A DNA stretch of 64,000 nt from Eledone cirrhosa (Eukaryota), in contig OZ024743.1 of assembly GCA_964016885.1 (NCBI GenBank), positions 29,450,001 through 29,514,000 on the forward strand, in the 5' to 3' direction. The notes under the pieces are model-generated. The model had not been told where the DNA came from. It did not search any database and saw only the letters and a program-made list of their open reading frames with translations. Position 1 is the first letter of the stretch. Each line of letters begins with the position of its first letter. This document shows positions 7,176-47,189 of this stretch, in pieces. A program made the translations under genes and the position numbers.

Positions 7176-10100
7176 ATTATTATTATTATTATTATTATTA
7201 TTTTTTGAGTCTCAGTTATTGATGTTAGTTAACTGGAAAGTTTGTTGAAATGAATATAAAGCCACTACCTGCAGACTCAGATATTCAGGACGTATCGGAG
7301 GGTTCTTGCTGTTCACAGCAAGCATGCCTTTTGAAGCGTTCCAAAAAGCGTGAAGGGGCCAATTTTCCTTAACCATCCCTGGAAACCTTTTGAGATAGTC
7401 CCTAGTGCGCCTATGACAATCGGGATCACTTTGACTTCATGGCAGTTCCAAATCCTTTTTACCTCCCACTTTAAGTCCTGGTATCGGTTAATGTTCTCCC
7501 TCTCCTTCTCTTGCACTCTCGTGTCGAATGGGCAGGCCACATCCACAATCAGGCACGATCTTTTTTCTTTGTCCAAAACCACCAGATCAGGTCTATTGTG
7601 TTCCAGTTTCTTGTCCGTCTGTATCCTAAAATCCCACAGCACCTTCACCTGATCGTTTTCTATCACCGCCTCTGGCTTATGCTCATAGCACATCTCAGAA
7701 TGTGGTAAATTGTTTACTTTGCATAGGTGCCAGTGGATAACCCTGCCCATCACATCATGTCTCCAGCCCTTATAGTGAGTCTGGGCTAGGTGTTTACACT
7801 CGGATACAATGTGAGCCACAGTCTCCTGTCTCTCTCCACAGATCCTGCACAGTGGGCTATCCTCCTCCTTTTAAATATGGTGTTTGAACCACTTCGTTTT
7901 GAGGGCCTGCTCTTGCGCAGCCATTAGCATTCCTTCTGTAGCCTTTTTAAGGTCTCCTTTTTTCAACCAGTTCCATGTCTGTGGAGCTCTGAATTCAGCT
8001 TTCTCAAAGAAGGTACTATGAAGGGATTTTTCATGAAGGCTGCTCTTTCTCCTTGATATTATTTCCTCCTTGGACATCCCCTGGCCTACTGTCCCCTCCT
8101 TCAGTACAGTTCTGAGCATTGGCTCATTACTATCAGTCACGTATTTGTGTAGGTTGTTTTTCACCATCTGAACACAGTCCTCTATGCTGATAAGACCTCT
8201 TCCACCTTCAGATCTCCTTAAGTAGAGTCTATCGACATCACTCCTCTTGTGGAACATGTTGTAGATAGTCAATAGCTTCCTAGTCTTCCTATCCATTTCT
8301 TTTTGTTCAGCAACATTCCATCTCAGAATTCCCGCACTGTACCTAATAATAGACACAGCTCGGGAATTTACTGCACTTATGGCATTCCTACTGTTCAGAT
8401 GTAACTTAAAAGAGCTCCTTACTCTCCGAATGTATTCAGTTCTTATCAATTTCTTCATTTTTTTGTTCTTGATGTCATCAGCCTCCAGAATGCCCAAATA
8501 CTTGTATCTTTCTTCAGAGTCAATTTCCTTTATCATCTCACCTATTGGTACCTGGATTCCGTTACTTCTGCTCAATTTACCCCTCTTCATGACAATGACT
8601 CCACACCTACTAATACCAAATTGCATACATATATCATTGGTGAAAATACGGACAGTGTCAACAAGCACATCCAACTCCTTCTCACTCTTCCCGAAGAGCT
8701 TAAGATCGTCCATGAAGAGTAGGTGATTGATGGTAAGCCCTCCCTTTCCCAACCTGTATCCTGCTCTCACTTTTCGCAGTACACTGGTCAGGGGCATCAG
8801 GGCATGGACAAACAACAGAGGGGACAGAGATATCTCCCTGGAAGATACCTCTCTTGATCTTCACGCTTCCCAAGGATTCTCCAGTTGATGTTAACTCTGT
8901 TTCCCAGGACTTCATACTTTTGCCCAACAACTGTCTGATGTTATCTGCCACCTTGAAGATCTCCAGGCTTTTGGTGATCCAAGAATGAAGCACCATGTCA
9001 AATACCTTTTTGTAGTCTATCCATCCCATGGCCAGACCAGTGTGTCTCCTCTTGCAATTCCTCATTACCATCTTATCAATAAGTAACTGGTCCTTTGTAC
9101 CACGTGACTTCTTTCGGCATCCTTTCTGTTCGTACGGTAACAAGTTGTTTGTGTGGAGGTGATGGTAGATTTCCTCAGACATAATGCTTGTCAACAGTTT
9201 CCACATTACGGACAGACATGTGATAGGTCTATAGTTGGTAACATCATTACCCTTGATTCTGTCTTTCATTATCAGAACTGTGGTACCTTTTGTCAACCAC
9301 TCTGGTACCTCACCTGGCATCAAGCAGTCATTGAACATGGTTGTCAGTTTCGCGGGGAGGGATGTTATATTTTTAATCCAATACCCCTGCACACCATCTG
9401 GGCCTGGTGATTTCCAGTTGGTTAGTTTTTTGGCCTGCCCCTTAAGAGTTTCAACTGTGATACTCAAATCAGTTTGTTGGTGTGCCTGTTCACTAATCTC
9501 CTTCTGTACTGTCTCAATCCACACTGCCTGGTCATTTTGTTTAACATCCTGCTCCCATGTTCCTCTCCAGAATGTTTTAGTTTGTTCCGCCTCAGGGATC
9601 AAGTTGTTGCCTCTTTCTTTCCCTTCAAGCTGTCCAAACAGCATCTTCTGGTTGTTGTCGAACATCCGGTTCTGTCTATACTGACTGACTCTGTTCTCGT
9701 ATCGCCTGATTTTTGCACTCTTTGCTACAATGCGTTGCTTCAGTTCCTCTATGATAATATTTAGCTTTTTCCTCCTAGTTTTGTACTTTATTTCCAGTCT
9801 ATTTTTAGTGTCTATGTTTTTTAGTGTCCCATTCAGTAGGGACTCAAGTTTTCCAATGTCATTTCTCATTTCCCTGATTTGACCACTCAGTCGTTTCTTC
9901 CACCAAGGTTCTGCTCTTTCTTGTCTGTTGTTTCCTCTCGCTTTTATACCAAGTATTTTCCTCACCGTATTTGCTGTTGCTTTGAGGATATTGTTGCACT
10001 GGTAAAGGCTCCTCGCCTCAAGGTATGGGATGACTTTGTTTACCCTAGCTGTTGTTTCTTTTAACTTTTTCCTGTCTACAAATCTTAGGTTCATAGGTCT

Positions 10101-10321
10101 CCCACTATCATTGTTCAATTCATCTACCACTAAGTTTAGGATATCTACCAAATCTTGTCCTAGCCCGTCAGCATTCATCTCCTCAGTGGCCGTATCTCTG
10201 TTCCAGGTATTATTTATGTCAGCATTCAGATCATTGTCTGCTTCGGGTGGTTCCTCCGTTCTCTCGACCTCTTCACATTCATTTCCCACTGGCTCGTTTG
10301 CCTGGCATACCCCACTCTCCA
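7176..10321 (-). mobile_element. R4/Dong-clade non-LTR retrotransposon (RT + CCHC + restriction-like endonuclease), 5'-truncated, two disruptions, (TAA)n tail
   Basis: ORFs 8700-10475 (KSPGPDG, YRPITCL, WIDYKKVFD, GIFQGD), 7871-8815 (HLLFMDDLKL, YKYLG), then CRICGERQETVAHIVSEC and 7313-7819 (RHD, LWDFRIQTD, NRPDLVV, IVDVACP); (TAA)n at 7176-7202. Confidence 0.92.
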
Positions 10322-10389
10322 TTCTTCTTCTTCTTCTTCTTCTTCTTCTTCTTCTTCTTCTTCTTCTTCTTCTTCTTCTTCTTCTTCTT
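10322..10389. repeat. (TTC)n microsatellite abutting the 5' end of the R4/Dong element
   Basis: Direct reading; source of the poly-R/poly-E in the ORF track. Confidence 0.95.
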
Positions 10390-10456
10390 TGATCATTCCT
10401 CTTTCCACTTGAGCCTGATGTAGTTTTTTCAAATGACCCTGATAATTGCTTATACT

Positions 10457-10622
10457 TTTGGCACAAGGCCAGCAATTATCCCAGAAGTACTTTATTTTAT
10501 CGACCCCATAAGGATGAAAGGCAAAGTTAACCTTGGCGGGATTTGAACTCAGAACCTAAAGGGCCATAACTTTATGCTGTAAAGTATGGTGTCTGACGCT
10601 CTACCGATACTGCCAATTCACC
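10457..10622 (-). mobile_element. tRNA-derived SINE (same family)
   Basis: Reverse complement matches 4120-4305. Confidence 0.85.
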
Positions 10623-19090: not shown

Positions 19091-19215
19091 AGACACACAC
19101 ACACACACACTCACACACACACACACCCACACACATACACACCCACACGCACACACGCACACACACACACACACAGAATATATATATATACAGATTTCTT
19201 CTTCTTTAAATATGT

Positions 19216-19257
<42 letters not shown>

Positions 19258-19259
19258 TT

Positions 19260-19323
<64 letters not shown>

Positions 19324-19375
19324 GCTACATATTTACACACACATATATATACATATATATATATATGTAAATATG

Positions 19376-19428
<53 letters not shown>

Positions 19429-19430
19429 TT

Positions 19431-19471
<41 letters not shown>

Positions 19472-19522
19472 CTACATATTTACACACACATATATATACA
19501 TATATATATATATGTAAATATG

Positions 19523-19554
<32 letters not shown>

Positions 19555-19783
19555 TATATACAATTAAGTTAAAGATGTACATCCATATATGTATACTGAA
19601 ATACTAGTATGTATATGAATACACACACGTATACATATGTAGATGTACCAAGTTTTTTCACTGGTCACTTTACTGTGAGTGGCCAGCTATTCTGTATGTA
19701 AACACACAGACAAACCGGTTTTTAGAGTCATACTGGTTTTTGAGGAAACACCTTTCCTCTATTCTCCAGAAAGCCAGACAAGG

Positions 19784-19828
19784 AATATTGAACTAGTTTC
19801 GTTGTTGTTACAACTCATCAGCAATATT
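19784..19828 (-). ncRNA. Minimal type-I hammerhead ribozyme, family 1 (identical minus-strand copies start at 20251, 20718, 21185, 21652, 22119)
   Basis: AAUAUUG-CUGAUGA-GUUGU AACA ACAAC-GAAA-CUAG-UU-CAAUAUU: perfect core, 7-bp stem I, 5-bp stem II, palindromic ACUAGU stem III, GUU triplet. Confidence 0.9.
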
Positions 19829-19913
19829 TACCTATCTTCCGGCCTCTCTAGAGAATCGTAAAAGCACATATCGTTATATGCTTTTTCTATGAAAATTAGT
19901 AGTGGGCAGACTA

Positions 19914-19921
19914 ATTTGCAT
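19914..19921 (-). promoter_or_regulatory. Octamer motif ATGCAAAT, once per 467-bp unit, ~86 nt upstream of the HHR
   Basis: ATTTGCAT on + strand; conserved at the homologous position of family 2. Confidence 0.45.
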
Positions 19922-22681
19922 AGAGTGTGAGTAAGTACCGGTTCAACGGAGACGATAAAAACAAATAACGAAACGAAATTAAATTTTGTTTCGTTTGTAA
20001 CTCACTTTTGTATGACTGACGCTTAAACAATTAAGTTAAAGATGTACATCCATATATGTATACTGAAATACTAGTATGTATATGAATACACACACGTATA
20101 CATATGTAGATGTACCAAGTTTTTTCACTGGTCACTTTACTGTGAGTGGCCAGCTATTCTGTATGTAAACACACAGACAAACCGGTTTTTAGAGTCATAC
20201 TGGTTTTTGAGGAAACACCTTTCCTCTATTCTCCAGAAAGCCAGACAAGGAATATTGAACTAGTTTCGTTGTTGTTACAACTCATCAGCAATATTTACCT
20301 ATCTTCCGGCCTCTCTAGAGAATCGTAAAAGCACATATCGTTATATGCTTTTTCTATGAAAATTAGTAGTGGGCAGACTAATTTGCATAGAGTGTGAGTA
20401 AGTACCGGTTCAACGGAGACGATAAAAACAAATAACGAAACGAAATTAAATTTTGTTTCGTTTGTAACTCACTTTTGTATGACTGACGCTTAAACAATTA
20501 AGTTAAAGATGTACATCCATATATGTATACTGAAATACTAGTATGTATATGAATACACACACGTATACATATGTAGATGTACCAAGTTTTTTCACTGGTC
20601 ACTTTACTGTGAGTGGCCAGCTATTCTGTATGTAAACACACAGACAAACCGGTTTTTAGAGTCATACTGGTTTTTGAGGAAACACCTTTCCTCTATTCTC
20701 CAGAAAGCCAGACAAGGAATATTGAACTAGTTTCGTTGTTGTTACAACTCATCAGCAATATTTACCTATCTTCCGGCCTCTCTAGAGAATCGTAAAAGCA
20801 CATATCGTTATATGCTTTTTCTATGAAAATTAGTAGTGGGCAGACTAATTTGCATAGAGTGTGAGTAAGTACCGGTTCAACGGAGACGATAAAAACAAAT
20901 AACGAAACGAAATTAAATTTTGTTTCGTTTGTAACTCACTTTTGTATGACTGACGCTTAAACAATTAAGTTAAAGATGTACATCCATATATGTATACTGA
21001 AATACTAGTATGTATATGAATACACACACGTATACATATGTAGATGTACCAAGTTTTTTCACTGGTCACTTTACTGTGAGTGGCCAGCTATTCTGTATGT
21101 AAACACACAGACAAACCGGTTTTTAGAGTCATACTGGTTTTTGAGGAAACACCTTTCCTCTATTCTCCAGAAAGCCAGACAAGGAATATTGAACTAGTTT
21201 CGTTGTTGTTACAACTCATCAGCAATATTTACCTATCTTCCGGCCTCTCTAGAGAATCGTAAAAGCACATATCGTTATATGCTTTTTCTATGAAAATTAG
21301 TAGTGGGCAGACTAATTTGCATAGAGTGTGAGTAAGTACCGGTTCAACGGAGACGATAAAAACAAATAACGAAACGAAATTAAATTTTGTTTCGTTTGTA
21401 ACTCACTTTTGTATGACTGACGCTTAAACAATTAAGTTAAAGATGTACATCCATATATGTATACTGAAATACTAGTATGTATATGAATACACACACGTAT
21501 ACATATGTAGATGTACCAAGTTTTTTCACTGGTCACTTTACTGTGAGTGGCCAGCTATTCTGTATGTAAACACACAGACAAACCGGTTTTTAGAGTCATA
21601 CTGGTTTTTGAGGAAACACCTTTCCTCTATTCTCCAGAAAGCCAGACAAGGAATATTGAACTAGTTTCGTTGTTGTTACAACTCATCAGCAATATTTACC
21701 TATCTTCCGGCCTCTCTAGAGAATCGTAAAAGCACATATCGTTATATGCTTTTTCTATGAAAATTAGTAGTGGGCAGACTAATTTGCATAGAGTGTGAGT
21801 AAGTACCGGTTCAACGGAGACGATAAAAACAAATAACGAAACGAAATTAAATTTTGTTTCGTTTGTAACTCACTTTTGTATGACTGACGCTTAAACAATT
21901 AAGTTAAAGATGTACATCCATATATGTATACTGAAATACTAGTATGTATATGAATACACACACGTATACATATGTAGATGTACCAAGTTTTTTCACTGGT
22001 CACTTTACTGTGAGTGGCCAGCTATTCTGTATGTAAACACACAGACAAACCGGTTTTTAGAGTCATACTGGTTTTTGAGGAAACACCTTTCCTCTATTCT
22101 CCAGAAAGCCAGACAAGGAATATTGAACTAGTTTCGTTGTTGTTACAACTCATCAGCAATATTTACCTATCTTCCGGCCTCTCTAGAGAATCGTAAAAGC
22201 ACATATCGTTATATGCTTTTTCTATGAAAATTAGTAGTGGGCAGACTAATTTGCATAGAGTGTGAGTAAGTACCGGTTCAACGGAGACGATAAAAACAAA
22301 TAACGAAACGAAATTAAATTTTGTTTCGTTTGTAACTCACTTTTGTATGACTGACGCTTAAACAATTAAGTTAAAGATGTACATCCATATATGTATACTG
22401 AAATACTAGTATGTATATGAATACACACACGTATACATATGTAGATGTACCAAGTTTTTTCACTGGTCACTTTACTGTGAGTGGCCAGCTATTCTGTATG
22501 TAAACACACAGACAAACGAAACAAAATTTAATTTCGTTTCGTTATTTGTTTTTATCGTCTCCGTTGAACCGGTACTTACTCACACTCTATGCAAATTAGT
22601 CTGCCCACTACTAATTTTCATAGAAAAAGCATATAACGATATGTGCTTTTACGATTCTCTAGAGAGGCCGGAAGATAGGTA

Positions 22682-22726
22682 AATATTGCTGATGAGTTGT
22701 AACAACAACGAAACTAGTTCAATATT
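22682..22726 (+). ncRNA. Minimal type-I hammerhead ribozyme, family 1 (inverted arm)
   Basis: AATATTG CTGATGA GTTGTAACAACAAC GAAA CTAG TT CAATATT; predicted cleavage after 22719. Confidence 0.9.
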
Positions 22727-23148
22727 CCTTGTCTGGCTTTCTGGAGAATAGAGGAAAGGTGTTTCCTCAAAAACCAGTATGACTCTAAAAACCGGTTTGT
22801 CTGTGTGTTTACATACAGAATAGCTGGCCACTCACAGTAAAGTGACCAGTGAAAAAACTTGGTACATCTACATATGTATACGTGTGTGTATTCATATACA
22901 TACTAGTATTTCAGTATACATATATGGATGTACATCTTTAACTTAATTGTTTAAGCGTCAGTCATACAAAAGTGAGTTACAAACGAAACAAAATTTAATT
23001 TCGTTTCGTTATTTGTTTTTATCGTCTCCGTTGAACCGGTACTTACTCACACTCTATGCAAATTAGTCTGCCCACTACTAATTTTCATAGAAAAAGCATA
23101 TAACGATATGTGCTTTTACGATTCTCTAGAGAGGCCGGAAGATAGGTA

Positions 23149-23193
23149 AATATTGCTGATGAGTTGTAACAACAACGAAACTAGTTCAATATT
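23149..23193 (+). ncRNA. Minimal type-I hammerhead ribozyme, family 1 (inverted arm, second copy)
   Basis: Same sequence, 467 bp downstream of 22682. Confidence 0.9.
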
Positions 23194-23482
23194 CCTTGTC
23201 TGGCTTTCTGGAGAATAGAGGAAAGGTGTTTCCTCAAAAACCAGTATGACTCTAAAAACCGGTTTGTCTGTGTGTTTACATACAGAATAGCTGGCCACTC
23301 ACAGTAAAGTGACCAGTGAAAAAACTTGGTACATCTACATATGTATACGTGTGTGTATTCATATACATACTAGTATTTCAGTATACATATATGGATGTAC
23401 ATCTTTAACTTAATTGTTTAAGCGTCAGTCATACAAAAGTGAGTTACAAACGAAACAAAATTTAATTTCGTTTCGTTATTTG

Positions 23483-23563
<81 letters not shown>

Positions 23564-23587
23564 ACATATATAAATAAAGATATATAA

Positions 23588-23662
<75 letters not shown>

Positions 23663-34679: not shown

Positions 34680-36640
34680 CCTTATCACTATCACATATAT
34701 GCCACCATATTTGCATAGTGCCTCAGAGAAGGTAGTTGAGGCAAGGGCCCATCTTAGGTCAATATCCCAATCTCACCATCAATCACCATCTCAAGGGAAA
34801 AAGATACAGCTTATCATGGCCAAAAAATCACTAGACGACGCTTATCTTAATGCTGAAGCCGACTATATCTCAGGTAGGATTGATCAGCTATCGCAACATC
34901 ACATCAGCAAACACCATCATCTTGCTTGGAAGGTTGTCAAAGATCTTCAAGCAAAAACTCAAACTCTGCAGTTAGAATCAAAGGAGGCTCTGCCAAAAAA
35001 CGTCTTGAAAATTGGTCTGCTCATTTTAAAAACCTTCTAGGGAAAAAGGCCAGATTCCCTGATAACTATCAACTGCCATCCGTTCAGGTTTCAGAGCCTT
35101 TAGGAATCAACACCTCTCCTTTCACCATGCCTGAGTTCAAAGAAGTCATCAAACAGCTCAAAGCCTCAAAAGCCTTTGGGCCGGATAATATACCTACCCT
35201 GATTTGGAAGGATGAGCATTTCCACATCCTTTTGTTCAACCTATGTAACCATACTTTCGAGACCAATAAACCACCTAGCGTCTGGCATGCAGCTCAAATT
35301 ATCCCCATGCCCAAAAAAGGAGATCTTTCTTTAGCCACCAACTATAGAGGAATTTCTCTCATGGCAATTGCTGCAAAAATATACAACAAGCTTCTCCTTA
35401 ACCGCTTAATTCCATTTCTTGAGCCAATCCTTCGTAACAACCAGAATGGATTTAGGAGAGGTAGATCAACACTTAGCCAGATTCTCTGCCTTCGCCGACT
35501 TATAGAGGAGTCCCAAAACCGCAATCTAGACCTTGCACTCATCTTTGTTGATTTTTCAAAAGCCTTCGACTCAGTTGACAGGTCGGGGATATTTGAAATT
35601 CTACAACTTTATGGGATTCCTGATAAAATCATCGCGGCCATACGTGTAATGTATACAAATACCAAATCAACTGTCCTGACCCCAGATGGGGAAACACCAC
35701 CTTTCTCAATCCTCGCTGGAATTTTACAGGGCGATACCCCTGCTCCGTATCTATTTATCATTGTTGTGGATTATGTTTTGCGCATGTCTGTGGATAGGAT
35801 TCAGGATAGGGGATACCAACTACAGCCTAGGAGAAGCTCACGCTACCCATCAAAATACTTGACCGACACCGACTTTGCTGACGACATCGCATTGATCAGT
35901 CGGTCACTGGAAAATGCTCTAGAGTCTTTTGAAGTCATTAGAGCAAACGTCCAACTGTGTTGGACTGTACCTCAACGAATCCAAGACTGAGTATGTGAAC
36001 AGATGCGCAAACAGCCCAAACTACCCCATCAGAGACCCTTAATGGTACCACCCTTAAGCAGGTGGAAGATTACAAGTATCTTGTCTCATATATCTCCTCC
36101 TCCAAAATGATTTTCTAACCAGGAAGGGTATGGCATGGTCAGCGTGCAATGACATGCACGCCATATGGAGATCTCAACTTACCAACAAGCTAAAATTGGA
36201 AATATTCCAAGCAACCATTAAGCCCATATTACTTTATGGATCCGAAAATTGGACACTAACATCACAACTTGAGAGGAGATTGGATGGCACATATACCCGC
36301 CTCTTAATGAGAGTGCAAAACCTATCCTGGAAACGACATCCAACCTTGTCTAAAATCTATGGCAAACTCCCTCGAGCCTCTGCCCTTCTAAAATCCCGGA
36401 GAACTCAATTTGCTGGCCACTGTCACCGTGCCAGCAATGCAATTATATCCGCTCTCTTACTCTGGAACCCTGACTCCAGCCTGACTAGGAGTAGGAAACT
36501 GTCATTCCATGACGTTATCTCTAGGGATACGGGTAGCAGTAGATGGGACCTGGGGGCAGCGATGGGGAACAGAGAATTCTGGGGCATGAGAGTGAGATCC
36601 ATCATCTCGACAGTAGTCGACGAATGATGATGATGATGAT
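34680..36640 (+). mobile_element. RTE-clade LINE, 5'-truncated, frameshifted RT, (TGA)n tail
   Basis: ORFs 34926-35990 (KAFGPDNI, NYRGISL, QNGFRRGRST, FVDFSKAFDSV, GILQGD, FADDI) and 36130-36627 (LLYGSENWTLT); GATGATGATGAT tail at ~36626-36640. Confidence 0.93.
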
Positions 36641-41330: not shown

Positions 41331-41797
41331 ACCTTATATCTGTATTAATACTACTACACCAAACCACCAGGCCTGTCCATTGTTCAACTGGTCAAATATA
41401 AATTAAATTAGGCACTCCCAAATATTCTTATTTAGATAAAAGAAGCCATATACTCATTGTATTCTCATTAAAAACCTTCTATACACATGCTTACCAGCAA
41501 ATTGAATTGCCAGCAAATTGAATTGCCATCTGTCATATACTTTCCCCTCCCCTCTTCCTTTCTTATAACTAATATAAATACTTTGAGTTTTCTGATTTTT
41601 TCCAATTTATCCAATATCTCTGAAGAAGTGACAATTGATTATACATTTGCTATCGATAACGTGCTAATATTATATGATTAAGCAAGCAGCGATACATATG
41701 TATTCCATCTGTTACAGAAACATGTCAATACCTAATAAATTCCTTTATAAAAGCACTTTCCTTTTATATTCATCTTTTCTATATATATATATATATA

Positions 41798-42824
41798 TAA
41801 GTATGTACACGTACATATATATATGTATACAGACTTACAGTAGTATGTATATATATATATATATACATACATGCACACATATATATATGTACGTATGGAT
41901 TCACCGAATATTTATTATAATGCTCGATGTGTTTGTAAAAAACATCCCGTATTAAGCCGTAGTGTCTAGCAACCATCGTTGCTCGTTTGTTCAACACTGC
42001 CAAAGGAACGCTGAACTAGTTTCAAGCTTATTAGCTATCGTCAGCAACGTATACCTTCCTGCCAGATTGTTGAATGTATATACTTACCTTATGCATATTA
42101 ACGGCTGAGTAGTCCAATTTGCATATCGAGTGGGTTAATCGGCCGGGAGCTCCGAAAACGATAAACGGAAAAAATGAAACGAAATTTCATTTCCCACTCT
42201 TAGTACGGCTGTTACTTAAATATAAGTATGTACACGTACATACATATATGTATACAGACGTACAGTAGTATGTATATATATATATACATACATGCACACA
42301 TATATATATATGTACATATGGATTCACCGAACATTTATTATAATGCTCGGTGTGTTTGTAAACAAACATACCGTATTAAGCCGTAGTGTCTAGCAACCAT
42401 CGTTGCTCGTTTGTTCAACACTGACAAAGGAACGCTGTACTAGCTATCGTCAGCAACGTATACTTTCCCGCCAGATTGTTGAACGTATATACTTGCCTTA
42501 TGCATATTAATGGGTGATTGGCCCAATTTGCATATCAATGGTGTTAATCGGCCGGGTGCACCGAAAACGATAAACGGAAAAAATGAAACGAAATTATGGT
42601 TGCTAGACACTACGGCTTAAGACGGGATGTTTGTTTACAAACACACCGAGCATTATAATAAATGTTCGGTGAATCCATACGTACATATATATATGTGTGC
42701 ATGTATGCATATATATATACATACTACTGTACGTCTGTATACATATATGTATGTACGTGTACATACTTATATTTAAGTAACAGCCGTACTAAGAGTGGAA
42801 AATGAAATTTCGTTTGATTTTTCC
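41798..42824. repeat. ~420-bp hammerhead-containing repeat (family 2), locus A: ~1.9 units then inverted partial unit from 42596
   Basis: Unit repeats at 41801/42226; 42596-42824 is the reverse complement of the unit; TA tracts on both sides. Confidence 0.9.
42008..42050 (-). ncRNA. Minimal type-I hammerhead ribozyme, family 2
   Basis: ACGUUG-CUGACGA-U AGCU AAUA AGCU U-GAAA-CUAG-UU-CAGCGU. Confidence 0.82.
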
Positions 42825-43873: not shown

Positions 43874-44804
43874 TAGTAGCAGTACCCAGCGTTGCCTGGG
43901 TGGGTAAAATAATATCTGCTTTGATGAAAAGGTGTTGATCTTAGCGACTGTTTCTCGATGACTCATCTATGGCCACACAGGCCATACGGAGGAGGTTGGT
44001 GATGACCTCTATCACTGAGAAACGCGGGGGACTGACGAAGGGGCAGGGAGGTAATGACCTCTTACACTAATTTCCTCACGATGAATTCTCAAATACAGTA
44101 CTAAAAGCTCAGACAACGTCAGTGGCCATCGTTTATCCTTTGACCATCTATAAGATGTGCAATGATAGGTTCTATCGTAGTATAAAAGTTGAACCAAATA
44201 AATTGATTTATGTGGGAGCTAGAGCCGAAAGTGTGGAAATTTGAGTGAAAAGGTGGTATTTTCGAATATACAAACGGCTGCCACGCCGTTCCTGAACAAA
44301 AAATCCAAAATATAAAGGCACTTTAAGACGTGGAATAATCAGATCTAGCGTAATGTGAAATTTGAACAAAGTAGGTTGATTAATGTGGGAGCTAGAGCCG
44401 AAAAAGTAGAAATTTGAGTATAAAACTGGTATTTTTGAATATTTAAGCGGCTGCCACGCCGTCCCTGAACAACAAATAGAAAATATAAAGCAAATACAGG
44501 ATGTGCAATGATCAATTCTATTTTGCTTTAAAATTTGAACGAAATCGGTGGCAAAATGTGGGAGCTAGAGCCAAAAGTCTTATTTTTCGTTACCTAAAGA
44601 AAGGTGATCCCTCTATCGATTTTTATCTGCAGATTGACCCTGGAATAAAAAAAAAACGATACGCTGATATATAGAAAACACTCCCCGATGACTAATCTAT
44701 GAGCCTGTAAAGTTTCATGAAAATCGGTCGTAAGATGTAGGCCCCTATAGGTAATACACATACACCCCGTCCCCCACACACACATCTTTATTTCATATCT
44801 ATAC

Positions 44805-45505: not shown

Positions 45506-45549
<44 letters not shown>

Positions 45550-46231
45550 GGAAAAAATGAAACGAAATTTCATTTCCCACTCTTAGTACGGCTGTTACTT
45601 AAATATAAGTATGTACACGTACATACATATATGTATACAGACGTACAGTAGTATGTATATATATATACATACATGCACACATATATATATGTACGTATGG
45701 ATTCACCGAACATTTATTATAATGCTCCGTGTATTTGTAAACAAACATCCCTTATTAAGCCGTAGTGTCCAGCAACCATCGTTGCTCGTTTGTTCAACAC
45801 TGACAAAGGAACGCTGTACTAGTTTCAAGTTTATAACCTATCGTCAACAACGTATACCTTCCTGTCAGATTGTTGAACGTATATACTTACCTTATGCATA
45901 TTAACGGCTGAGTAGTCCAATGTGCATATCGAGTGGGTTAATCGCTGGGTGCACCGAAAACGATAAACGGAAAAAATGAAACGAAATTTCATTTCCCACT
46001 CTTAGTACGGCTGTTACTTAAATATAGGTATATACACGTACATACATATATGTATACAGACGTACAGTAGTATATATATATATATACATACATGCACACA
46101 CATATATATATGTACGTATGGATTCACCGAACATTTATTATAATGCTCGGTGTGTTTGTAAACAAACATCCCGTATTAAGCCGTAGTGTACAGCAACGAT
46201 TGTTGCTCGTTTGTTCAACACTGACAAAGGA

Positions 46232-46274
46232 ACGCTGTACTAGTTTCAAGTTTATTAGCTATCGTCAGCAACGT
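46232..46274 (-). ncRNA. Hammerhead ribozyme family 2 (core intact, one stem II mismatch)
   Basis: ACGUUG-CUGACGA-UAGCU AAUA AACUU-GAAA-CUAG-UA-CAGCGU. Confidence 0.7.
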
Positions 46275-46682
46275 ATACTTTCCTGTCAGATTGTTGAACG
46301 TATATACGTACCTTATGCATATTAACGGCTGAGTAGCCCAATTTGCATATCGAGTGGATTAATCGGCCGGATGCTCCGAAAGCGATAAACGGAAAAAATG
46401 AACGAAATCTCATTTCCCTGGATACTACGGCTTACTACGGGATGTTTGTTTACAAACACACCGAGCATTATAATAAATGTTCGGTGAATCCATACGTACA
46501 CATATATATGTGTGCATGTATGTATATATATATACATACTACTGTACGTCTGTATACATATATGTATGTACGTGTACATACTTATATTTAAGTAACAGCC
46601 GTACTAAGAGTGGGAAATGAAATTTCGTTTCATTTTTTCCGTTTATCGTTTTCGGTGCACCCGGCCGATTAACCCACTCGAT

Positions 46683-46690
46683 ATGCAAAT
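46683..46690 (+). promoter_or_regulatory. Octamer ATGCAAAT upstream of the family 2 HHR
   Basis: Exact motif ~67 nt upstream of the HHR, at the position homologous to family 1. Confidence 0.45.
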
Positions 46691-46756
46691 TGGGCTACTC
46701 AGCCGTTAATATGCATAAGGTAAGTATATACGTTCAACAATCTGAGAGGAAGGTAT

Positions 46757-46799
46757 ACGTTGCTGACGATAGCTAATAAGCTTGAAACTAGTACAGCGT
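46757..46799 (+). ncRNA. Minimal type-I hammerhead ribozyme, family 2
   Basis: ACGTTG CTGACGA T AGCT AATA AGCT T GAAA CTAG TA CAGCGT; GUA triplet, predicted cleavage after 46793. Confidence 0.85.
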
Positions 46800-47189
46800 T
46801 CCTTTGTCAGTGTTGAACAAACGAGCAACGATGGTTGCTGGACACTACGTCTTAATACGGGATGTTTTTTTACAAACACACCGAGCATTATAATAAATGT
46901 TCGGTGAGTCCATACGTACATATATATATGTGTGCATGTATGTATATATTTATACATAATACTGTACGTCTGTATACATATATGTATGTACGTGTACATA
47001 CTTATATATATATATATATATAAAATTGGAATTGGTGCTCTGAAATAGCGACATATATATGAACGCATATATAGTGTATTTTGCAATACACTGTATGCTT
47101 AATTAAAAGCATTTCGAAGACCTTACGTTATTGTTTTAGAGTAGTGACAGTCTCACTTACTTTACATTTTCAACAATCAGGGGAGATAA

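What the first reader, a model, noticed from the sequence alone, without database searches (positions are those of the whole stretch)
19560..23489. 467-bp tandem array with eight perfect minimal hammerhead ribozymes: a retrozyme-like element
Seen in sequence: every full unit carries AAUAUUG-CUGAUGA-GUUGU/ACAAC-GAAA-CUAG-UU-CAAUAUU (six on minus, two on plus). Units look identical by eye, have no credible coding capacity, and contain other hairpins (AACGAAACGAAATT-A-AATTTTGTTTCGTT at 19967-19995). Established knowledge: minimal type-I HHRs with a short palindromic stem III cleave as dimers and occur in PLE pLTRs, newt satellite 2 and metazoan non-LTR retrozymes, whose tandem transcripts are cut to monomers and circularised. 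Inference: this array yields 467-nt monomer or circular RNAs and may have arisen by rolling-circle reverse transcription in one recent event. I do not know of a described cephalopod family like this.
Basis: partly seen in the sequence, partly recalled or inferred. Interest (0 to 1): 0.92.

Follow-up and report, generated by a model that had tools for sequence, protein, structure and literature searches.

The report
Retrozyme arrays born by rolling-circle copying
This is one of more than 2,000 insertions of a 467-base, hammerhead-ribozyme-bearing repeat that sit in (TA)n microsatellites as two head-to-head arms with two fixed outer ends, a layout that suggests each whole array was likely copied in one go from a small RNA circle by a borrowed Penelope-like reverse transcriptase.

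Summary
Observation confirmed: 6.3 + 2.1 identical 467-bp units, head to head, eight minimal type-I hammerheads, inside (TA)n. It is a young copy of a family with 5,217 exact ribozyme cores and at least 2,316 insertion ends. Kind: animal non-LTR retrozyme, a known class. New is the evidence on mechanism. In 57 insertions picked without regard to ends, all 41 with two canonical ends pair one end at unit position ~44 with one at ~440 (the Penelope 'tail'); an autonomous Neptune-type element here shows the same anatomy. Arms cross 433 cut sites, inner ends ignore the cut, insertion-specific changes run through all units of both arms, within-arm equals between-arm divergence, and 20-unit arrays can be mutation-free: arrays look born whole from one monomer. 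The ribozyme core is invariant among inherited lineages, with a compensatory stem II pair. Inherited changes lean A>G on the RNA strand (editing?; mixed support). No RNA data, cleavage assay or sequence-matched helper element. The scan noted Penelope-type tandem insertions without a ribozyme in another genome (e1-7881736).

The parts
19560..22517 (-). Left arm: 6.33 identical 467-bp units; RNA-sense 3' end at 19560 = unit position 439 (priming site 'B')
22512..23489 (+). Right arm: 2.09 identical units; RNA-sense 3' end at 23489 = unit position 44 (priming site 'A')
22512..22517 (.). Head-to-head junction of the two arms, 6-bp microhomology ACAAAC
23418..23489 (+). 72-nt 'tail' present at this end only (unit 440-467 + 1-44), with the hairpin at 23449-23477; likely RT-binding/initiation module
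   Evidence: tail concept from PMC8557442 and PMC11167929
22682..22726 (+). Minimal type-I hammerhead, predicted cut after GUU at 22719; palindromic ACUAGU stem III
23149..23193 (+). Minimal type-I hammerhead, second copy of the right arm
19784..19828 (-). Hammerhead, left arm
20251..20295 (-). Hammerhead, left arm
20718..20762 (-). Hammerhead, left arm
21185..21229 (-). Hammerhead, left arm
21652..21696 (-). Hammerhead, left arm
22119..22163 (-). Hammerhead, left arm
19210..19559 (.). (TA)n-rich target microsatellite, left half
23490..23644 (.). (TA)n target microsatellite, right half

Best explanation
This is a young insertion of a non-coding, hammerhead-bearing retrozyme family whose two head-to-head arms were likely written in a single event by a borrowed Penelope-like (likely Neptune-type) reverse transcriptase-endonuclease that would prime from both cut strands of a (TA)n target and roll round a 467-nt RNA circle. 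Steps: (1) a multi-unit copy is transcribed (inferred); (2) neighbouring hammerheads pair through the palindromic ACUAGU and cut it to monomers (motif and selection on it shown; cleavage inferred); (3) the monomer, whose ends are held together by stem I in the predicted fold, is ligated to a circle (inferred from other retrozymes); (4) the helper nicks both strands of (TA)n, 12-15 bp apart, and starts one cDNA at unit position ~44 and the other at ~437-442 (end pattern and target duplications shown; enzyme inferred); (5) each cDNA runs for anything from a few bases to many turns, and the two are joined at a short microhomology (anatomy shown; rolling inferred); (6) some arrays later duplicate blocks of units (shown for a minority).
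For: Two-site rule: 71 of 95 insertions have one A end and one B end, 0 A+A, 1 B+B, 16 only one recognisable end, 7 an irregular second end; among the 57 found without regard to ends, 41 of 41 with two canonical ends are A+B; all 70 with two mapped arms are head to head. 2,316 A ends genome-wide; same two ends as loose ends in public run X1. Target duplications of 12-15 bp readable at 6 insertions with informative flanks. An autonomous RT + GIY-YIG element in (TA)n (L134 family) has two head-to-head arms with two different fixed ends; so does the sister 421-bp family. In vitro a PLE protein nicks and extends both strands, starts at two internal sites that bound the tail, and is predicted to be a dimer (PMC11167929). 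No free 5' end at the cut: arms cross 433 cut sites and 6 of 167 inner ends lie at 200-218 against 6.8 expected. One-monomer bottleneck: of 50 insertion-specific changes covered by 3 or more units, 41 are in all units; 31 of 33 covered in both arms are in both. Born whole: within-arm 0.0042 vs between-arm 0.0041 (42 insertions, p 0.60); arrays of 19.5 and 19.8 units with no substitution; length does not grow with age (rho -0.25, n 48); 22 of 35 arrays of 4 or more units carry only single-unit changes or none. Ribozyme needed: core + stem III invariant, 0 of 15 vs 107 of 403 (p 0.015), though post-insertion mutations hit it at the usual rate; stem II pair is T-A in 38 and A-T in 25 insertions, never mixed; triplet varies only GUU/GUC. 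Double hammerhead -16.6 kcal/mol vs +0.1 for the monomer with stem III. Strand-biased A>G changes occur array-wide (18 of 41) and not among single-unit changes (25 A>G vs 26 T>C of 228), as expected if one RNA molecule was read many times.
Against: No RNA evidence for transcript, cleavage or circle. No helper element sharing sequence with the unit among 50 GIY-YIG loci read, out of 10,595 first-look candidates. 13 of 35 longer arrays have changes shared by a subset of units, some periodic (L049, L082, L150, L8688, L1412, L1590), so later duplication or dimer/trimer templates add to length; the 31-unit arm cannot be credited to RT alone. L056 and L058 have arms of two haplotypes, so one circle per insertion is not a strict rule. 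For the anole PLE the ribozyme was dispensable and uncut RNA was the main substrate in vitro (PMC11167929). Only 95 of more than 2,300 insertions were read, so an 'insertion-specific' change may be shared with an unsampled parent. Perfect identity within long arrays could be inflated by assembly consensus (read type unknown).
Confidence: 0.68

Rival explanations
1. Same helper and two-site priming, but the template is an uncut linear multi-unit transcript of a young, uniform parent array; the ribozyme serves another step.
For: Uncut RNA is the main substrate of the anole PLE in vitro and no reads ended at its cut site (PMC11167929); young uniform arrays of ~20 units exist and could be parents; minimal hammerheads often cut poorly (1 of 9 Xenopus elements cut in bioRxiv 10.64898/2026.07.22.740005).
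Against: It needs some other route by which one changed unit becomes a whole array; RNA-stage changes should then be private to single units, yet the strand-biased A>G class is array-wide and single-unit changes are symmetric; copying with 5' truncation alone would shrink arrays each generation; strict conservation of the core is left unexplained.
Confidence: 0.17
2. Insertions arrive short (about one unit per arm) and arrays grow afterwards by unequal crossing-over, as in the usual satellite model proposed for vertebrate retrozymes.
For: Periodic shared changes in 13 of 35 longer arrays; median arm is only about 700 bp; model stated in bioRxiv 10.64898/2026.07.22.740005.
Against: Within-arm divergence equals between-arm divergence; the longest mutation-free arrays have 19-20 units split over two inverted arms; length does not rise with age; 22 of 35 arrays are star-like.
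Confidence: 0.09
3. The RT jumps end to end between cleaved linear monomers, or the element moves as DNA by a Helitron-like rolling circle, rather than copying a closed RNA circle.
For: Occasional haplotype switches within an insertion (L047, L056, L058); Helitron-linked tandem repeats also favour TA targets (recalled).
Against: Switch points in L056 and L047 are not at the cut site; inner ends show no pile-up at the cut; 12-15 bp target duplications, two-arm anatomy shared with an autonomous PLE, and RNA-level selection on the ribozyme do not fit a DNA route.
Confidence: 0.06

Closest known systems
Animal non-LTR retrozymes (Cervera and de la Pena 2020, PMC7229834; review PMC7761336)
   Same: Non-coding tandem unit of low GC with a type-I hammerhead in each copy, strongly self-paired monomer, no LTR, target duplications longer than 4 bp; a mollusc (mussel) example exists; multimeric cDNA from a circle is their proposed model.
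   Different: Unit slightly longer (467 vs 150-450 bp); minimal, dimer-type ribozyme rather than the canonical invertebrate one; the two-arm, two-fixed-end insertion rule is not in the passages read ('inverted' 0 times, 'octopus' and 'cephalopod' 0 times in PMC7229834); circles were shown there and are not shown here.
Retrozymes as non-autonomous PLE derivatives (Li, Clavereau, Pollet 2026, bioRxiv 10.64898/2026.07.22.740005)
   Same: Retrozyme families co-occur with PLEs; unit sizes 51-972 bp; helper proposed to be a PLE.
   Different: 35 genomes (31 vertebrates, three insects, one coral), no mollusc; link made by pLTR sequence similarity, which was not found here; arrays ascribed to local amplification, which the present data argue against as the main route.
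Penelope-like elements, Neptune clade; anole Poseidon PAc (PMC8557442, PMC11167929)
   Same: Partial tandems with an inverted 5'-truncated copy, a tail at one end only, microsatellite targets, hammerhead in the repeat; two internal RT start sites and nicking of both strands in vitro.
   Different: No ORF; tail ~70 nt rather than 30-40; up to 20-30 whole units; the strict one-arm-per-site pairing is not stated in the parts read (PAc start sites did not differ between strands).
Newt/axolotl satellite 2 and PLE minimal hammerheads that cut as dimers (axolotl data in PMC7229834; Lunse 2017 seen only as a reference title)
   Same: Weak, palindromic stem III predicted to work as a double hammerhead.
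   Different: Dispersed two-arm insertions in (TA)n rather than described as satellite blocks; cleavage untested here.

Membership tests
Non-LTR retrozyme | Tandem repeat of a few hundred bp with a type-I hammerhead in each unit | tested here: met
   467 bp, 8 motifs; HH9 E 4.8e-8, below gathering
Non-LTR retrozyme | Non-coding, GC under 50%, no LTR | tested here: met
   No internal ORF of 100 aa; GC 35%; ends mapped in 95 insertions. PBS/PPT not searched separately.
Non-LTR retrozyme | Dispersed copies with target duplications longer than 4 bp | tested here: met
   2,316 ends; 12-15 bp duplications at 6 informative loci, unreadable in pure (TA)n
Non-LTR retrozyme | Ribozyme structure under selection | tested here: met
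   0 of 15 vs 107 of 403 variable positions; compensatory stem II pair 38/25/0 mixed; stem I differs yet pairs in two sister families
Non-LTR retrozyme | Self-cleavage in vitro | not testable with these tools
   Only energy estimates for the double hammerhead
Non-LTR retrozyme | Expressed as linear and circular monomer RNA | tested here: inconclusive
   No holder on record as RNA; contigs only
Non-autonomous Penelope-like element | Inverted 5'-truncated copy and a tail at one end only | tested here: met
   41 of 41 A+B in end-blind samples; 70 of 70 head to head
Non-autonomous Penelope-like element | Microsatellite target as in Neptune/Naiad | tested here: met
   (TA)n flanks at most ends
Non-autonomous Penelope-like element | Autonomous PLE present in the genome with the same insertion anatomy | tested here: met
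   RT + C-terminal GIY-YIG ORFs with a CxxxxCxxC linker in (TA)n; L134 two-arm, two-end copy
Non-autonomous Penelope-like element | Sequence similarity to the pLTR of an autonomous PLE | tested here: inconclusive
   None among 50 GIY-YIG loci read of 10,595 candidates
Autonomous PLE | ORF with RT and GIY-YIG | tested here: not met
   No ORF in the array, none between arms in the 38 further insertions read

The most novel reading that the evidence does not exclude
A Penelope-like protein dimer loads on a single ribozyme-made RNA circle at two set positions 70 nt apart, primes one from each nicked strand of the target and rolls out two inverted multi-unit arms at once, so that every insertion is a many-fold record of one RNA molecule, including A-to-I edits made on it; the family would then evolve largely through RNA editing written back into the germline genome.
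Probability: 0.3. Interest if true: 0.85.

Novelty: new member of a known kind. Interest (0 to 1): 0.6.

Why it matters
How Penelope-like elements make their tandem/inverted copies and one-sided tails is called undefined in PMC8557442, and rolling-circle reverse transcription of animal retrozyme circles has been a proposal without direct support in the papers read. This family offers thousands of young, countable insertion events that show a one-arm-per-start-site rule and single-monomer origin of whole arrays, and names the RNA, the two start positions, the target and candidate helper ORFs for a direct in vitro test. It also gives a route by which satellite-like arrays and long inverted repeats arise in one step, and possibly a case of RNA edits fixed in the genome.

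Tried and rejected
(1) Inosine or hairpin repair at unit position 12: the first 31 insertions looked A/G-mixed with no pure-G array, but the sample taken along C1 showed G as the common state with pure-G arrays of 19 and 23 units; the pattern came from searching with an A-bearing query plus CpG decay. Rejected. (2) A>G excess, first strict test: 6 vs 4 of 20, not significant; on the tree 45 vs 20 of 122 (p 0.003), 33 vs 17 distinct sites (p 0.03), but 20 vs 13 at sites that change once (p 0.30), 27 vs 15 outside CpG context (p 0.09), and no ADAR-type neighbour preference. Kept as a lead only; selection for G-U wobble and template switching are rivals. (3) Helper search: GIY-YIG scan and 50 loci gave no pLTR like the unit; the RT fragments in the window (8700-10472, 34884-35987) were not linked to it. 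(4) Expression: no RNA holder listed. Runs X1, X4, X5, X6 are contigs of unrecorded kind; X4 has one 497-base contig equal to one unit closed on itself, which fits a tandem in DNA as well as a circle. (5) Rfam at gathering score: nothing. (6) Ends at the ribozyme cut, as a plain cleaved-monomer SINE would have: not seen. (7) Rows dropped: L176 (duplicate of L175) from variant counts; L056 from the within/between and age tests; L056 and L058 from the tree; set 2 (picked on an exact ribozyme core) from the conservation test; 17 targets were picked from the end lists, mostly as A-B pairs, so the 38 insertions of set 3 are not used for the end-pairing test. (8) Papers: seven searches found no description of a cephalopod retrozyme, of the end-pairing rule or of editing in retrozyme copies; subscription journals are mostly missing, the Lunse 2017 paper was not held, and the preprint's supplements could not be seen.
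Full report
Observation. The array is as described: a left arm of 6.33 units (19560-22517) and a right arm of 2.09 units (22512-23489), all identical, the right arm being the reverse complement of the left. Eight minimal type-I hammerheads are present, six on minus and two on plus; Rfam's HH9 model matches at E 4.8e-8, under its gathering score. The unit has 35% GC, no ORF, and folds far better than shuffles (z about -10, linear or circular). Both flanks are (TA)n. All unit positions below refer to window 22512-22978 (+), the ribozyme-sense strand; the predicted cut is after position 208.

The family. The 3.0-Gb genome holds 5,217 exact copies of the 29-base ribozyme core (reversed control 0) and 2,316 ends of one type followed by (TA)n; the other end type gave 768 forward matches (reverse count inflated by overlaps). 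I read 95 insertions in three sets: 31 found by likeness to the unit, 26 at the first core matches along contig C1, and 38 chosen from the end lists. Identity to the window unit runs from 87 to 100%.

Insertion anatomy. All 70 insertions with two mapped arms are head to head, 5' ends joined, 3' ends facing out. Outer ends fall at two places: A (about 44) and B (about 437-442). Of 95, 71 are A+B (9 of them with one arm only a stub), none A+A, one B+B, 16 show one recognisable end and 7 an irregular second end; in the 57 found without regard to ends, 41 of 41 with two canonical ends are A+B. Public run X1 shows loose (TA)n ends at the same two positions. Inner ends are spread over the unit, mostly with a few bases of microhomology. 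Target duplications of 12-15 bp can be read at six insertions with informative flanks. The ~70 nt between B and A, with a hairpin, is thus present at one end only. This is the PLE 'tail' and inverted-copy signature (passages of PMC8557442), and it matches the in vitro finding that an anole PLE protein nicks and extends both strands and starts at two internal sites bounding the tail (PMC11167929, parts 1-2 of 4 read). The genome has RT + C-terminal GIY-YIG elements with a CxxxxCxxC linker, Neptune-type by the criterion, inserted in (TA)n; one copy (L134) has two head-to-head arms with two different fixed ends about 45-50 nt apart. A sister 421-bp hammerhead family, with two insertions in this window, follows the same rule. 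No autonomous element sharing sequence with the unit was found among 50 GIY-YIG loci, so the helper is inferred from anatomy, not identified.

The ribozyme matters. Leaving out the set picked on an exact core, 0 of 15 core and stem III positions vary between inherited lineages against 107 of 403 others (p 0.015; set 3 alone 0 of 15 vs 93 of 403, p 0.029), while post-insertion single-unit mutations hit the core at 0.40 per site against 0.49. One stem II pair is T-A in 38 insertions and A-T in 25, never mixed; the triplet is GUU or GUC; sister families change stem I while keeping its pairing and keep ACTAGT. Stem III cannot close in a monomer (+0.1 kcal/mol) but forms six pairs in a double hammerhead (-16.6). 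So cutting is likely needed for spreading and likely happens between neighbouring units; this is inference from selection and energy, not an assay.

How arrays arise. Arms cross 433 cut sites, and only 6 of 167 inner ends lie near the cut (6.8 expected), so the template had no free 5' end there. Of 50 changes specific to one sampled insertion and covered by three or more units, 41 are in every unit, and 31 of 33 covered in both arms are in both (majority status is built into the method, presence in all units is not). Within-arm and between-arm divergence are equal (0.0042 vs 0.0041, 42 insertions), arrays of 19.5 and 19.8 units carry no substitution, length does not rise with age, and 22 of 35 arrays of four or more units have no change shared by a subset of units. 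A conserved ribozyme, no stops at its cut and a one-monomer bottleneck together point to a circle read many times. Against a strict version: 13 of 35 arrays show block duplication or dimer/trimer periodicity, two insertions have arms of different haplotypes, only 95 of over 2,300 insertions were read, and assembly consensus could overstate uniformity. Multimeric cDNA from circles was proposed in PMC7229834 and PMC7761336 (passages); a 2026 preprint (parts 1-3 of 5 read) ties vertebrate retrozymes to pLTRs and favours local amplification, which these data do not support as the main route here.

A>G bias. On a tree of 61 insertions, inherited changes are A>G 45, T>C 20, G>A 17, C>T 13 of 122, on the RNA-sense strand; single-unit changes are symmetric (25 vs 26 of 228) and led by G>A and C>T. 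A>G changes cluster on single branches (78/82/83, 82/83/99, 84/87, 442/443/455) and lie mostly in predicted stems. This fits A-to-I editing of the RNA template, but the asymmetry loses significance at sites that change once and outside CpG context, and no neighbour preference is seen; wobble-tolerant selection and template switching may contribute. I put editing at about 40%. An earlier idea of inosine at position 12 was a sampling artefact.

Expression could not be judged: no RNA holder was listed and the laid runs are contigs of unrecorded kind.

Verdict. A new family of a known class, the animal non-LTR retrozymes, working like a non-autonomous Penelope-like element. An earlier scan note on another genome describes ready-made tandem arrays with Penelope-type ends but no ribozyme; two other look-ups were empty. 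Interest 0.6: ordinary as an element, useful as a natural record that makes an open mechanism testable.

Noticed in passing
window 41792-42822 and 45544-47010: Two insertions of an older sister retrozyme family (~421 bp, core CTGACGA...GAAACTAGTA), about 70-80% alike in parts, with the same head-to-head arms and two fixed ends in (TA)n.
   Followed up: partly
L129 7589-9892: A third related hammerhead family (period about 490-510 bp) beside a small copy of the 467-bp family and a PLE fragment.
   Followed up: partly
L7273 (G000:C1:30831601-30840873): 19.8-unit insertion with no single-unit substitution but three A>G changes within 6 bases (unit 78, 82, 83) in all covered units of both arms.
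   Followed up: partly
L056 (G000:C3:73499543-73503671): Arms from two haplotypes differing at about 3% of sites; the switch lies at a 22-base deletion near unit 455, not at the ribozyme cut.
   Followed up: partly
L150, L082, L8688, L049: Period-2 or period-3 patterns of unit variants: later block duplication, or dimer/trimer templates.
   Followed up: partly
L159+L160 (G000:C1:5738085-5752751): One arm of 30.75 units (14.3 kb), with signs of later duplication.
   Followed up: partly
L119 1775-5062, L120 4809-7622, L122 4722-6629, L134: Long open frames of Neptune-type PLEs; the L122/L134 family has its own minimal hammerhead with palindromic AAGTACTT; candidates for a helper assay.
   Followed up: partly
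window 7871-10475 (-) and 34884-36627 (+): Broken reverse-transcriptase (RVT_1) frames, likely LINE fragments.
   Followed up: no
window 44152-44576: 2.5 copies of a 173-bp repeat (77% matches) inside a TA-flanked element of unknown kind.
   Followed up: no
runs X4, X5, X6: The unit occurs in runs of three other coded organisms with very few variants each; kind of run unknown.
   Followed up: no
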